A stretch of 63,491 nucleotides of DNA, counting the filler, from Octopus bimaculoides (Eukaryota), in NCBI RefSeq assembly GCF_001194135.2. It is 5 parts of 3 records of this genome, joined end to end, with 100 filler letters (N's around TTAATTAATTAA, not from the genome) between each part and the next. Parts side by side here need not be neighbours in the genome. Positions count along the whole stretch, not along the records: positions 1 to 30,820 come from NC_068982.1; positions 30,921 to 49,831 come from NC_068996.1; positions 49,932 to 57,582 come from NC_068982.1; 2 more parts are not named here. One strand, written 5' to 3'. Shown in pieces: positions 6,210-52,667 of the stretch. The translations under genes were made by a program, and so were the position numbers. How positions within the stretch are numbered: position 1 is the first letter of the stretch; each line of letters starts with the position of its first letter. Under the pieces are notes generated by a model that had not been told where the DNA came from, did no database searches, and was given only the letters and a program-made list of their open reading frames with translations.

Positions 6210-6480
6210 ACGAAACAACAAAAGTTAACAGGACGAACACATGGAATGTATTAAGCTTGACACTCAGTATAAGATGGTAAAAAAAGAGTGGGTGTGTAAC
6301 GTTTCGAGTTTGGTTCTTCGTCAGAAAGAGGAGAAAGGAAAGGTCCGGAAAGAAGGAAAGAAGTTCAAGAAAAGCACATGCGTGGTTGCATGGTTGAAGG
6401 AACCGGAAGTGGAGAGTGATAGAGAAAGGGGCTTTTTAAGGCAGGAGGGTGCAAAAATGGCCGGTGTGTGTGAGGTAGTA
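6210..6480 (-). mobile_element. Penelope-like pseudo-LTR fragment containing a hammerhead-like core
   Basis: The minus strand reads CTGACGA-AGAACCAAACTC-GAAACGTT (6324-6298), followed by GAGTGTCAAGCTTAATACATTCC, which is similar to the post-ribozyme segment of 26655-26885. Confidence 0.5.
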
Positions 6481-8795
6481 TTTGTGTGCGTATGTGTCTG
6501 TGTTCATGTGAGTGATGTATGTGTAAGGAGTGGTGTGGAACGTTATATATATGTGTGTATGTGTATATGTGTGTGTGTGTGTGTATGTGTGTATGTACGT
6601 ATGTATAGATAGATAAATACATGTACATATATTTGTATACACACACATATGTACGTATATGCAAGTTACATAAATGCATACACAGGCACACACATATAAT
6701 ATATACATATACGTAGATATAGACAAACACGCGTACGCCTACCGACAAATACTAGCATTTATTATATATATATAGTAAATATTAGTCAAATTCCTGAGGT
6801 CTTTGCTTGTTAAGGATGAATCCAATATCTGATACGCATTAAATCTATTCGACCAAGTAGTTAGACCCCCACCCCACCCCCACCACCACTAACATCGTCT
6901 AATACCACCATCTGTTTGGTTAGAACACCTCCGTCCATTTTAAGTCCTAGTTCAAAATAAGGTCCGACTTACCCTTGCAATTTTAGAATGTCATTTTATT
7001 GTTTACTTGTTACGTCATTTTCCCCCTTTTCAGCTGCCTCCCATCTCGTACAATAGACTTACCCCTTGCTTTGGTAGAACGGAGTAGAAGTTATTTATTG
7101 TTCAATGTAAATGTTAATTCACATGCCATGCCGTTTTGTATAGTATTGTATGGAAATATTACATAAAATAGCATGACATGTGAATCACACAAATAATAAT
7201 AATAATACTATACATATATTCGTGTGAGAATGCGCGCATACACGTCACACATGTCACTCTTTCTCTCTCTCATATACATATATACATATATTATTAATAC
7301 ATAGATTGTGCATATATATATATATATATATATATATATATATATATATATATATATATANNNNNNNNNNNNNNNNNNNNNNNNNNNNNNNNNNNNNNNN
7401 NNNNNNNNNNNNNNNNNNNNNNNNNNNNNNNNNNNNNNNNNNNNNNNNNNNNNNNNNNNNNNNNNNNNNNNNNNNNNNNNNNNNNNNNNNNNNNNNNNNN
7501 NNNNNNNNNNNNNNNNNNNNNNNNNNNNNNNNNNNNNNNNNNNNNNNNNNNNNNNNNNNNNNNNNNNNNNNNNNNNNNNNNNNNNNNNNNNNNNNNNNNN
7601 NNNNNNNNNNNNNNNNNNNNNNNNNNNNNNNNNNNNNNNNNNNNNNNNNNNNNNNNNNNNNNNNNNNNNNNNNNNNNNNNNNNNNNNNNNNNNNNNNNNN
7701 NNNNNNNNNNNNNNNNNNNNNNNNNNNNNNNNNNNNNNNNNNNNNNNNNNNNNNNNNNNNNNNNNNNNNNNNNNNNNNNNNNNNNNNNNNNNNNNNNNNN
7801 NNNNNNNNNNNNNNNNNNNNNNNNNNNNNNNNNNNNNNNNNNNNNNNNNNNNNNNNNNNNNNNNNNNNNNNNNNNNNNNNNNNNNNNNNNNNNNNNNNNN
7901 NNNNNNNNNNNNNNNNNNNNNNNNNNNNNNNNNNNNNNNNNNNNNNNNNNNNNNNNNNNNNNNNNNNNNNNNNNNNNNNNNNNNNNNNNNNNNNNNNNNN
8001 NNNNNNNNNNNNNNNNNNNNNNNNNNNNNNNNNNNNNNNNNNNNNNNNNNNNNNNNNNNNNNNNNNNNNNNNNNNNNNNNNNNNNNNNNNNNNNNNNNNN
8101 NNNNNNNNNNNNNNNNNNNNNNNNNNNNNNNNNNNNNNNNNNNNNNNNNNNNNNNNNNNNNNNNNNNNNNNNNNNNNNNNNNNNNNNNNNNNNNNNNNNN
8201 NNNNNNNNNNNNNNNNNNNNNNNNNNNNNNNNNNNTATATACTGTTTATATACACTGAGTAGTTATATTTTTATTGGGAATTTTGCTGATTAGAATTGTG
8301 TTTCTGGGGTATTTTACAAATTGAGTGTATATGTATGTATGTACACACACATACACACACGCACACGCACAAACATACATACACACACGCTCACACACAC
8401 ATACACACACACACACACACACACACACACACGCATACATAGTGTATATGATGTAAAATCTCCCAACAAAATTTTTCCAAGAGGTGGCTGACCGTTGTCT
8501 AAATAGAGTGAACGGATCTACTCTAGGTGACGGTTTATGCCTTTGGTGGTCAGTTTATTCTTAGATCTATGGCGTTCCATCATTGGCTCCAGTTGGTCGT
8601 TCTCCTGTATCAGGAGGACTGCATCATTGATGTATTCACGTAATTTGCATACTGTGTTTACTTTTTATCTTATCTCACTTTATCTCGCTTTTTTTCTTCT
8701 CACCTTTTATGTAAGCCATCATATATATTATAAACTGTCCTTGTAATATTCCCATTACTGATGCTCCAGTGACAAATAAAAGAAAAAGAAATTAC

Positions 8796-8900
8796 ATTAT
8801 TATTATTATTATTATTATTATTATTATTATTATTATTATTATTATTAATAATAATAATAATAATAATAACAATAATAAAAATAATAATAATGATAATAAT
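8796..8900. repeat. (TTA)n directly followed by (ATA)n, a palindromic trinucleotide microsatellite
   Basis: Direct. Confidence 0.9.
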
Positions 8901-8904
8901 GATA

Positions 8905-49504: not shown

Positions 49505-52330
49505 TTGTTTCAGCACACGATCTCAGATCAAGTCACTTGCTATTTAAGTACATCTTCGTAATTTTTACAAAAATTTAATGCATCTTCATTGTATTTCTTT
49601 TGTGGCTCTATAACTCTATTTTTCTATCCTATTTATCCCTTGTTCTATATCCAGAATAAGTAATACGTCGATTCAATGAAATACAGATATACATTCAGCA
49701 AAAAGTAAGTAAAAGATGATAAAACAATAATGAATTTTTTAAAAATACATTTAATAGATCAAAATACATATTAGATATTAATTGTTTTTATTACTTTGTA
49801 CAACAATATATTCAACAATCCACAGACTGGANNNNNNNNNNNNNNNNNNNNNNNNNNNNNNNNNNNNNNNNNNNNTTAATTAATTAANNNNNNNNNNNNN
49901 NNNNNNNNNNNNNNNNNNNNNNNNNNNNNNNATATATATATAAAGAAAGAGAAAGAGGTGGAGACAGACAGACAGAAAGAGATAGACAAACAGATAGCTA
50001 GAGATATAGCTAGAGATATAGCTAGAGAGATCGTTGATTAGGCAATTATCATGTACAGGGCATCGACCGGGAATTTGAAAATTTCATTGAGGTCCGTCAT
50101 CATAAGCTTTAGTTTTGTTAAGCTTAGTAATGTTACGCTGATTATCAGACGAGGCACTGTTTATGAGACAATAATTGCTATGCTTTACAATTAAGTCTAT
50201 ATACTATAGTTAAATATTCTCCAGCCACATTACTCCTAAGATTCATTCTGAAAGTTTAGTTGATGCAAAACTGTTTTCTCGTTCTAGTTCTGGGAAATAT
50301 TCATGCGTTATTTCCACAGTCGTCACATTAGATCCCTACGTAGAATCTGCTAATAAGAAGTGTGTCATTGGAGTATGAACAGGTATTGCTAATACCTCCT
50401 TGTCCTTTCGCAAGGAGGAAACTGGTTACGTATGTTACCAACCATATGTTTGTTGCTTTTGTTTCTCCGTTTCTCTGTGTGCGTGTCCCTGTGTGTGCGC
50501 AAGTGTGTGAATCGAGAAAAATATTGTAACCATTAGTAAAAGATAATTGATGATATTTAGAAAGTGTTCTATTTCATCACGTTTCTTTCATAAAAAGGTA
50601 ATATTATTTTCAATTATCATTCTTTAGAAACCAGTTTAAAATGTATATAAACTATTCAAGCACATTTTTAAATATTTAAATTATCGCTTCAACAAAGCCG
50701 TATTTTTATAATTTTCTATTTGCTAATTTTCTTCCTGAATTTTTGATATTTAAATGCCACAATTAATCGCAAACTGTGACTTTTAAAGAGGAAATGCAAC
50801 TGAGTAAAGTTGCTGATTCAGTATTTAAACATTCATCTAATTTGCATTTATTACTATCATATTATTCCCTCCAGCATACACGAGTGGGAAATACGTGTAA
50901 TATATCCTGATATTTTATCTGAAGAAGATTTAAAATATAAATGAAGAAAGGAAATGAAGTCAAACCTGATTTAAATTCTATTTGAAGTATATTTAATATT
51001 TTGTTCCGTTATTTTTGACGCCAGAAATCTCTCGCGTATTTAGATAGTATTTGACGCATAAACGATATGAAATAGTTTCATCCAATACACGTAGGTGCAT
51101 CAAAATTTATCTTTGCTTCCCGAATTTTATCAAATGCTGTAATTATAGAGTGTGATCTGCAGCAATATGTTACTGTGCTCACAAATCAAGCAATAAAAGT
51201 TATTCAACTTTACTGCGAAGTTATGTTTCCAGAAGTGTTTAGCTTCCCATGTTCATATTCTCTAAAATGTTTGGCTTGAATCAAAATCAATAACACCTAG
51301 TCTCATTGAGAATAAACTGAATACCTTCAATAAATATGGTTTTATACAGTTTGAATAGCAAAAGCAACTATATTTAAGAATGGGGTATCTTTGAATACAG
51401 ACGGATTAGATTTACACAACATAGTAATAACATTTTGTATGGTCGGATGGAACATATCCCAACATTGGAAATCCACTAAACGGAAAATTAATTCATCTAA
51501 AATTTACTGGTTAAGACCACCTACCCAATGCCAGTTTTGTCACCATCTTCAATATGTAGGAACGCTAAATTAGTCCTTGGAAAGACGTGGCCGACGGGAG
51601 CACGGGAATAAAACTTGGTCTGATCCACAAATATCAAATTAGTGAACAATCAGAGCTGACAAAATCTAGACAACTACAAGAACTTATGTCAACTGATTCT
51701 CATGTCAACTAATGTCAACTGATTCACCTGATTCCCATAATGTGGATACAATAGATAATGAATACATGCTTATAATTTGGGTGATTATATAGAAAACATA
51801 AAATGCCATTAAATTTCCCAGGATATTTGTTGCTTGAAATCATGGATGTTCATGTTCATTCCATGAAAACAACGTGCGAATAAAAATTTAAAAAATAGAT
51901 AGATTACCAGTTAGGGATTGTTTGGCAAAAAAACTATATAAATAAACATTCTATAATTAATATAAATACCTCAATTCAGATGTGATTATAAAAAGAAACT
52001 TCCGGTACACACGGACTTCCAGTATCTCAAATGTTGTGCAGAGTCATTAAGAATGAAGCATTGCAATGATATAAATTTCGCTCAGTAACGATTAATACGA
52101 CATCAGGGAGTGACTGGTAATCTACAGCCATATGCACTACATCGGTAAACTTTCAACAACGGCAAATTACATCACTGCAATGTCGCTACTCAAGATATCA
52201 GGAGAGGAATCGACTTTGTCAAATCAGCATTTCGTCAATTTTTCCCCCTACGCATTCTATTCTTGGTTCGCTTGTATATATCTCTACAGAGATACACATA
52301 CTGTATATATATATATATATATATATATCA

Positions 52331-52487
52331 GAAAAAATGATAATCAGGTACTCAGATGTCTGGATGGTTGTATACATACATATTTTTATTCATATGTTTT
52401 TTTCTATTCACAAAACATGTGACATACGAATAAAAATCTGTAAATATACAACCATCTAGACATCTGAGTACCTGATTATTATTTTTC
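52331..52487. repeat. Inverted repeat with ~66-bp arms and 24-bp spacer
   Basis: AATCAGGTACTCAGATGTCTGGATGGTTGTATA pairs with TATACAACCATCTAGACATCTGAGTACCTGATT, and further inner pairing is present. Confidence 0.85.
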
Positions 52488-52616
52488 TAATATATAATTC
52501 CTGTACATCACCTCCAAACCTTCCAATATATATATATATATATATATATATGTAAATATATAAAAATAAAAAGATAAAGAGAGCAATGGTAAGGTTGGAG
52601 AAGTATTTTATGGATA

Positions 52617-52667
52617 GAGTCTTACAGCTGTTTCTGGGAAGATCCAGTACTTCCCTTCATCGGAGAC
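52617..52667 (-). ncRNA. Minimal type-I hammerhead ribozyme-like motif
   Basis: Minus strand: GTCT-CCGATGA-A-GGGAAG(TACTGGAT)CTTCCC-A-GAAAC(AGCT)GTA-AGAC. It has stem I GTCT/AGAC, a 6-bp stem II, palindromic ACAGCTGT helix III and a GUA triplet. Confidence 0.7.

What the first reader, a model, noticed from the sequence alone, without database searches (positions are those of the whole stretch)
6298..52667. Window-wide system: multiple families of short non-coding, hammerhead-bearing elements with variant cores
At least five intact-looking or partial motifs (6298, 12074, 26754, 43468, 52617, plus half-motifs at 26330-26420 and a weak one at 32865) occur in 63 kb, in about three sequence families. 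Most have self-complementary helix III (ACGT, ACTCGAGT, ACAGCTGT, ACGGCTGT) and several have altered cores (C3 insertions, U4C). None is next to a PLE ORF. Minimal hammerheads in Penelope-like elements are established. A dense cephalopod population of non-autonomous, variant-core copies would be worth describing and could cleave or process host pre-mRNAs when intronic. Novelty cannot be confirmed without a literature or database search.
Basis: partly seen in the sequence, partly recalled or inferred. Interest (0 to 1): 0.72.

Follow-up and report, generated by a model that had tools for sequence, protein, structure and literature searches.

The report
Penelope tail hammerheads with variant cores
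The hammerhead-shaped RNA motifs are real, but most are the tail ends of broken Penelope-type jumping genes, a known arrangement; the unusual part is one lineage of over 8,000 copies that carries a changed letter in the normally fixed catalytic core yet keeps the rest of the motif, so it likely still needs the fold, though cutting is untested.

Summary
Five of the seven listed sites are real minimal type I hammerhead-like motifs; 26330-26420 is a degenerate repeat end and 32865 is unsupported. They fall into five genome-wide repeat families (A-E), not three. A, B, C (Neptune/Nematis-type linker) and D (Hydra-type) continue upstream into Penelope-like GIY-YIG ORFs. The 43468 copy itself keeps the ORF's end, so 'non-autonomous, no PLE ORF' is wrong. 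Copies sit in (TA)n with fixed 3' ends, tails and inversions, as known for PLEs. The '3-nt C3 insertion' in A is a misregistration: the core is C-U-G-U-N-G-A (A6U), with U4A added in the two window copies. The A pattern has 8,168 exact hits. In copies picked by flank only, U6 is fixed (64 of 68), and only N7 and H17, the two core positions a hammerhead leaves free, vary between subfamilies (2 of 35 motif columns against 54 of 127 flank columns). D has family-wide U4C; B has a 1-nt insertion. Neither 5' ends nor RNA reads pile up at the predicted cut. Most likely a slow or conditional PLE ribozyme that transposition does not need. The scan noted similar variant cores in other octopus DNA.

The parts
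6207..6460 (-). Family C: old (~75-89% identical copies) PLE 3' end; motif 6294-6328 with canonical CUGACGA core, bulged A, but broken helix II and no helix I; predicted dead
   Evidence: ORF link in L055
12045..12345 (+). Family B: young PLE 3' end in (TA)n; motif 12074-12113 identical to the family form (GGC-C-A-UGACGA, helix II AGGG/CCCU, palindromic helix III ACUCGAGU, GUC site)
   Evidence: EN ORF upstream in L097, L153, L164
26230..26353 (-). Family E: inverted 5'-truncated partner copy (head-to-head arm)
26355..26615 (+). Family E repeat end with degenerate hammerhead-like sequence 26358-26421 (helix I ATCACT/AGTGAT in some copies, no canonical register); ORF link not shown
26658..26880 (+). 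Family A, young subfamily: short PLE 3' end ending ...TTCTCCC(AT)n; motif 26754-26788 with core C-A-G-U-U-G-A (U4A + A6U), bulged A, GAGC/GCUC, ACGU, GUC site
42969..43103 (+). C-terminal ~45 codons of the family A GIY-YIG ORF (…QHLSVFGLSSHRG…GLN/ELNSPPLFI*)
   Evidence: tblastn 95% over 20 aa to the ORF of L202
43104..43600 (+). Family A 3' UTR and end; motif 43468-43503 with U4A + A6U and a helix II mismatch; predicted dead
52547..52710 (-). Family D: very young (99-100%) Hydra-type PLE 3' end; motif 52619-52667 with U4C core CCGAUGA, A·A at the base of a 6-bp helix II, palindromic ACAGCUGU, GUA site
52705..52741 (+). Start of the inverted partner copy of family D (runs into an assembly gap)

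Best explanation
The motifs are the hammerhead-bearing 3' ends (pLTRs) of at least four coding, endonuclease-positive Penelope-like retrotransposon families, left as short 5'-truncated copies in (TA)n, and their variant cores are family-wide states that likely give a slow or protein-assisted ribozyme that transposition does not need. Shown: ORF linkage, fixed 3' ends, tails, inversions, family-fixed cores, and in lineage A that only N7 and H17 vary between subfamilies while U6 stays fixed. Inferred from known PLE biology (PMC11167929): the GIY-YIG domain nicks AT-rich DNA and RT starts inside the element RNA downstream of the motif. Inferred here: the many ~200-330-nt copies whose 5' ends stop just upstream of the motif are likely solo pLTRs copied from the 5' pLTR of the master's own transcript, up to its start site. 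The motif fold is likely kept by selection in master elements, for occasional dimer or protein-assisted cleavage or as an RNP-binding structure. Single inserted copies are mostly inert.
For: ORF links: A, RT and GIY-YIG pieces with C-x4-CxxC linker directly upstream of the 3' UTR in many of 30 loci (weak Pfam GIY-YIG E 0.006-0.009 and RVT_1 E 0.0015; homologs carry RVT_1 and, in 2 of 5, GIY-YIG). B: EN ORF in L097, L153, L164. C: L055. D: CxCx5C linker and EN ORF ~750 nt upstream in L090/L091, the Hydra signature of PMC8557442. Fixed 3' end plus (TA)n in A; two 3' ends ~60 nt apart and many head-to-head inversions in D; a similar ~60-nt tail in B. Register CUGUNGA-A-GAGC..GCUC-GAAAC-GU-H matches the min-HHR consensus in the supplement of PMC4209133 and the related canonical families. 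Constraint. B and a sister subfamily have wholly different helices II and III in the same architecture. Two-copy folding gives the double-hammerhead fold as the minimum for B and D. 5' ends: 63 of 70 A copies start no further than 112 nt upstream of the predicted cut and 28 of 30 B copies within 20 nt upstream of the motif 41-mer. PAc HHR mutants did not impair insertion in vitro, and that HHR cleaved only with its protein.
Against: Family E has no shown ORF link. D's 5' ends are dispersed, not walled. The constraint test rests on 53 of 70 copies from one chromosome arm; flank columns include noisy pyrimidine and T runs; loop II and the bulge are also largely fixed, which catalysis alone does not demand. 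For A the two-copy fold does not form the intermolecular helix III. There is no sign of cleavage in vivo.
Confidence: 0.72

Rival explanations
1. PLE ends as above, but the variant cores are simply dead ribozymes hitch-hiking in successful master elements; the apparent conservation reflects another overlapping element (promoter or protein-binding hairpin) or chance.
For: Position-6 changes cut activity strongly in Mg2+ (A6C: PMC3088659, PMC7151607). The young A subfamily adds U4A and still amplified (272 exact flank hits). Family C lost helix I in its common form. No cut-site ends. HHR cleavage is dispensable in vitro.
Against: The two columns that vary in A are exactly N7 and H17, and H17 is never G in 68 copies (weak alone). 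B and B' swap both helices but keep the architecture.
Confidence: 0.17
2. One reading: independent non-autonomous, retrozyme-like short elements that self-cleave, circularise and may process host pre-mRNAs.
For: Most copies are short and non-coding, with clustered 5' ends. One tandem duplication of the A motif region (L280) and a few RNA reads with a go-back joint of 119 nt (8 reads in 2 of 3 runs) exist. PLE-derived retrozymes are described (PMC7229834; bioRxiv 10.64898/2026.07.22.740005).
Against: Four families are collinear with PLE ORFs. Copies are dispersed singles, not tandem arrays (B: one motif in each of 30 loci). Cores are non-canonical, unlike the canonical HHRs of retrozymes. The go-back reads match a genomic tandem of the L280 kind. 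No cut-site ends.
Confidence: 0.06
3. The U4A change in the window's A copies created a 3' splice acceptor (pyrimidine tract + CAG) inside the core, as the D. virilis Penelope intron ends at helix I, so splicing would rebuild or remove the ribozyme.
For: The sequence TTTCTGTGTTCCTTTCAG| precedes UUGAAGA; the D. virilis precedent is in PMC4209133.
Against: 97 of the first 100 genome hits have CUG, not CAG. The one copy with a deletion ending there (L255) lacks a GT donor. The RNA lay showed no splice joint, but it used a CUG-subfamily copy, so it does not test CAG copies.
Confidence: 0.05

Closest known systems
Minimal type I hammerheads (min-HHR) in pLTRs of metazoan PLEs (Cervera and de la Pena 2014, PMC4209133; parts 1-2 of the text and supplement passages read)
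   Same: U-rich lead-in, short helix I, bulged base after A9, G10.1-C11.1 (A, C), palindromic helix III, mostly single dispersed copies of truncated PLEs, many consensus families per genome.
   Different: Family-wide A6U (A), U4C with A·A at the base of helix II (D) and a 1-nt insertion after C3 (B). The parts read describe U3-A8 and the D. virilis form; no Octopus hit in the one supplement file searched (file 1 could not be searched).
Neptune/Nematis and Hydra clade EN+ PLEs (Craig et al. 2021, PMC8557442; introduction, passages and supplement rows read)
   Same: C-terminal GIY-YIG, CX2-5CxxC linker (A, B; partly C) or CxCX5C without CCHH (D), (TA)n targets, tails, inverted truncated partners, 3' HHR.
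   Different: Their Hydra-1_oBim has a canonical HHR of different sequence; four short motifs of A/C, B, D and E and one protein motif of D were not found in that supplement. No RT phylogeny was made here.
PAc (Poseidon, green anole) protein-assisted HHR (PMC11167929; passages and part 2 of the main text read)
   Same: HHR in the pLTR, internal RT initiation giving tails, no RNA-seq ends at the cut site, cleavage not needed for insertion in vitro.
   Different: PAc has canonical C3/G8 and proven cleavage; the octopus variants are untested.
Natural core-variant hammerheads: A6C of phage Bcep176, insertions near C3 in saltern variants (PMC3088659 section 8 and passages; PMC7151607 passages)
   Same: Change at position 6 or insertion near C3 in a natural hammerhead; low activity in Mg2+; A6C rescued by Mn2+.
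   Different: Those are single microbial sequences; here A6U (not C) is fixed over thousands of retroelement copies and several subfamilies.
Animal non-LTR retrozymes (PMC7229834 passages; bioRxiv 10.64898/2026.07.22.740005 part 1 of 5)
   Same: Short non-coding type I HHR repeats tied to PLEs.
   Different: Retrozymes are tandem units with canonical HHRs that give circles; these are dispersed ends collinear with coding PLEs.

Membership tests
EN+ Penelope-like elements | RT followed by C-terminal GIY-YIG endonuclease upstream of the 3' repeat | tested here: met
   A: RT and EN pieces. B, C, D: EN only. E: not shown.
EN+ Penelope-like elements | Fixed 3' end, optional tail, variable 5' truncation, inverted partners, (TA)n target | tested here: met
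   tails here are ~60 nt against 30-40 nt in PMC8557442
EN+ Penelope-like elements | pLTR-ORF-pLTR partial tandem in full-length copies | not tested
   No full-length copy was recovered; fetched stretches break at assembly gaps.
Neptune/Nematis clade (A, B, C) | CX2-5CxxC linker and CCHH motif in EN | tested here: met
   A CSRPRCRTC, B CNDSRCGTC, each followed by a two-Cys GIY-YIG; C is decayed at the linker. Neptune against Nematis not resolved, no tree.
Hydra clade (D) | CxCX5C linker, no CCHH, CxxC and CxH near the C-terminus | tested here: met
   CNCRSGTIC, single Cys in the GIY-YIG, CKLC and CNH; RT motifs RWK and DKT not seen (RT in a gap).
Type I minimal hammerhead | Three helices, GAAA, palindromic helix III, UH site | tested here: met
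   12074, 26754, 52617; not met at 6298, 43468, 26358 and 32865
Type I minimal hammerhead | Invariant core C3 U4 G5 A6 N7 G8 A9 | tested here: not met
   A: U6 in 64 of 68. D: C4 in 23 of 23 readable cores of 30 loci. B: extra A after C3 in 24 of 24 readable of 30. C: canonical core.
Type I minimal hammerhead | Site-specific self-cleavage (as dimer or with protein) | not testable with these tools
   Indirect only: no end pile-up.
Non-LTR retrozymes | Tandem non-coding units, each with a canonical HHR, giving circles | tested here: not met
   Singles, collinear with ORFs, variant cores; one local duplication (L280).

The most novel reading that the evidence does not exclude
Lineage A carries a natural A6U hammerhead (CUGUNGA) that stayed functional through a long succession of master elements, with only N7 and H17 free. 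It would be a mass natural example of a conditional ribozyme that cleaves only when rescued by the element's own RT-EN protein, by dimerisation or by a special ion. With U4C (D) and C-A-U (B), octopus PLEs would be a reservoir of catalytic-core variants invisible to standard descriptors.
Probability: 0.3. Interest if true: 0.65.

Novelty: new variant of a known kind. Interest (0 to 1): 0.42.

Why it matters
What PLE hammerheads do is still open: they cleave poorly and were dispensable in the one in vitro transposition system. A lineage that fixed a normally crippling core change, kept every other core base and amplified to over 8,000 copies is a natural experiment. It makes the question testable with a few short RNAs: either the core tolerates A6U under protein help, or the fold is kept for a non-catalytic job. 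It also means hammerhead censuses with a fixed CUGA core undercount such genomes. The system as a whole is a known kind.

Tried and rejected
Rfam scan: no hammerhead among the 150 listed of 188 hits, nearly all microsatellite noise. The repeat finder was swamped by microsatellites. '3-nt insertion' register for A: rejected, because it leaves a 1-bp helix II, whereas the substitution register gives a 4-bp helix, matches family C and puts the variable base at N7. The PLE ORF beside a B copy in L043/L092 belongs to another family with its own canonical core start, so it was not used as the B link. The LINE RT at 26834-28052 (-) is a different element abutting the A copy, not its source. Antisense-hammerhead idea for B: dropped once the B ORF was found on the motif strand. 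Cleavage-defined 5' ends: 1 of 70 and 0 of 30 A copies and 1 ambiguous of 30 D copies start at the predicted cut. The 5'-end computation was an artefact (alignments ran into CA/TA repeats) and was replaced; the ends are likewise inflated; the D core count failed, so D was counted by eye. Run search: no listed holder on record as RNA; three raw RNA runs of one study, unstranded, were laid on one A/B locus. The E upstream walk reached no ORF of its own. Host-gene context of the window copies was not obtained. Lunse et al. 2017 on dimeric PLE hammerhead variants is not held (known only from the review PMC6765202, passages), so it may already list such variants. Paper searches found no report of A6U hammerheads or of octopus PLE core variants; most subscription journals and bioRxiv supplements are not covered. 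The giant squid genome paper (PMC6962438, passages) only counts 235 Rfam hammerhead loci.
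Full report
Setting. The window is a pack of five stretches from a 2.34-Gb, microsatellite-rich genome. A UniRef hit named Octopus bimaculoides to the family A protein fits an octopus; that is an inference.

Observation. The listed motifs are present at 6294-6328 (-), 12074-12113, 26754-26788, 43468-43503 and 52619-52667 (-), with a degenerate one at 26358-26421 inside a 124-bp-arm inversion. A strict canonical descriptor finds 0. 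A relaxed one finds 2 against 0.4 in 60 shuffles (palindromic subset 2 against 0.03). A post hoc min-HHR descriptor finds 3 against 0.08 in 200 shuffles. The site at 32865 has no palindromic helix III and no homolog among the fetched loci; I treat it as chance. Each other site belongs to a dispersed repeat: first-look candidates were 3,223 (A), 1,258 (B), 516 (C), 899 (D) and 162 (E) (not copy numbers). Exact patterns give 682 (B), 85 (D) and 8,168 (A architecture) hits with 0 reversed controls.

They are PLE ends. Family A has a fixed 3' end (…TTCTCCC then (AT)n) and variable 5' ends. Searching with the sequence upstream of 43468 returned copies running into a GIY-YIG ORF with a C-x4-CxxC linker, and further up into RT pieces. 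Pfam scores are weak; homologs carry RVT_1 and, in 2 of 5, GIY-YIG. The 43468 copy itself keeps the ORF's last ~45 codons, ending at 43103. B runs upstream into a similar EN in L097, L153 and L164, and C does so in L055. D lies ~750 nt behind an EN with a CxCx5C linker and no CCHH, the Hydra signature described in PMC8557442. It is not the Hydra-1_oBim listed there, whose HHR is canonical and different. D has two 3' ends ~60 nt apart and many head-to-head inversions, and B has a similar tail. These are the known PLE features (PMC8557442). E is an older repeat with inversions and a scrambled motif; I found no ORF of its own.

The cores. In the first 100 listed of 8,168 hits, position 6 is U in 97, A in 2 and C in 1; position 4 is U in 97 and A in 3; N7 takes all four bases (counted by eye). 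To avoid conditioning on the core I took 70 of the 100 listed copies from a flank-only pattern (5,738 hits). In the 68 with a core, U6 is in 64 and A6 in 1; N7 is T40/G14/C10/A3; H17 is T36/A25/C7 and never G; every other core column has one base in at least 59 of 68. A tree from flanks alone (53 of the 70, the rest dropped for gaps or truncation) shows a ladder of subfamilies with canonical CUGA cores in the four outgroup copies. 54 of 127 flank columns but only 2 of 35 motif columns have a second state at 12% or more, and those two are N7 and H17. This is the pattern of a constrained hammerhead despite A6U. Caveats: one chromosome arm, noisy pyrimidine flanks, and loop II and the bulge are largely fixed too. 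The two window copies add U4A. D has C4 in 23 of 23 readable cores among 30 loci and an A·A mismatch under a 6-bp helix II. B has one extra A after C3 in 24 of 24 readable copies among 30, in two subfamilies whose helices II and III differ completely. C keeps CUGA, but its 3' strand no longer pairs as helix I. Two-strand folding gives the double-hammerhead fold as the minimum for B and D but not for A.

Activity. Natural A6C variants cleave poorly in Mg2+ and better in Mn2+; insertions near C3 impair cleavage (PMC3088659, PMC7151607). Single min-HHRs were inactive and dimers weak (PMC4209133). The anole PLE hammerhead cleaved only with its protein, its mutants did not impair insertion, and no RNA-seq reads ended at its cut (PMC11167929). 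Here too, 1 of 70 and 0 of 30 A copies and 1 ambiguous of 30 D copies begin at the predicted cut. Three unstranded RNA runs of one study cover an A copy at 1,200-1,800-fold summed over all similar loci, with no end pile-up, no depth step and no base change above 5% in the core. Such libraries are poor at showing ends.

Why so many short copies. 63 of 70 A copies start no further than 112 nt upstream of the cut, with none between -112 and -158. 16 of 30 young-subfamily copies start between -111 and -88. 28 of 30 B copies start within 20 nt upstream of the motif 41-mer, and the upstream 35-mer has 68 hits against 682. D is dispersed. Since PLE RT starts inside the RNA downstream of the HHR, initiation in the 5' pLTR would copy only up to the transcript start and give solo pLTRs. 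This step is my inference; an RT stop at structure is the alternative.

Verdict. The system is a known kind: min-HHRs in truncated EN+ PLE ends. The new element is family-wide core variation, above all A6U under hammerhead-like constraint. My searches did not find it in print, but the most relevant paper (Lunse et al. 2017) could not be read. Earlier notes of this scan report variant-core PLE hammerheads in other octopus DNA; I saw only their summaries, and none matched this sequence by words. New variant of a known kind; interest 0.42.

Noticed in passing
window 26834-28052 (-): Fragments of a non-LTR (LINE) RT ORF (Pfam RVT_1 E 1e-10), ending after the YADD motif where the family A copy abuts it.
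   Followed up: partly
window 10556-10981, 11429-11595, 12363-12624, 16093-16308, 17984-18304, 22652-22929, 25848-26023, 36263-36714, 41587-42044, 61858-62112: A very abundant ~450-bp SINE-like repeat with an internal microsatellite, at least ten copies in the window.
   Followed up: no
window 8906-9010, 10357-10523, 24316-24483, 37084-37262, 37862-38090, 44830-44988, 48678-48861, 56549-56723, 58829-59102: A second dispersed short repeat family, often after (ATT)n/(TAA)n runs.
   Followed up: no
window 30784-30820: Short (TTAGGG)n-type telomeric-like array at the very end of the first stretch.
   Followed up: no
window 52322-52496: 175-bp imperfect inverted repeat (MITE-like or fold-back) just beside the family D copy.
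   Followed up: no
window 13984-14694 (-) and 62114-62598: Decayed ORF pieces that look like DNA-transposon transposases (the second mariner-like, from recall of the motif); no Pfam hit for the frames tested.
   Followed up: no
L092:1180-3190 (-) = L043: Another PLE family with RT and EN ORF pieces and a canonical CUGAUGAG core start at the edge of a gap, tail-to-tail with a B copy.
   Followed up: partly
L123-L142 (family E), ~75 nt upstream of the main motif: A second hammerhead-like half (CUGAAGA-A-GCC…GGC-U) whose GAAA has decayed, so E may carry two degenerate motifs in tandem.
   Followed up: no
L280 (G000:C1:16066700-16067950): Direct ~122-nt duplication of the A motif region, placing two motifs in tandem; RNA reads with a 119-nt go-back joint may come from such a locus.
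   Followed up: no
L098, L104, L100: A and B copies often sit within a few hundred bases of each other, suggesting shared (TA)n insertion hotspots.
   Followed up: no
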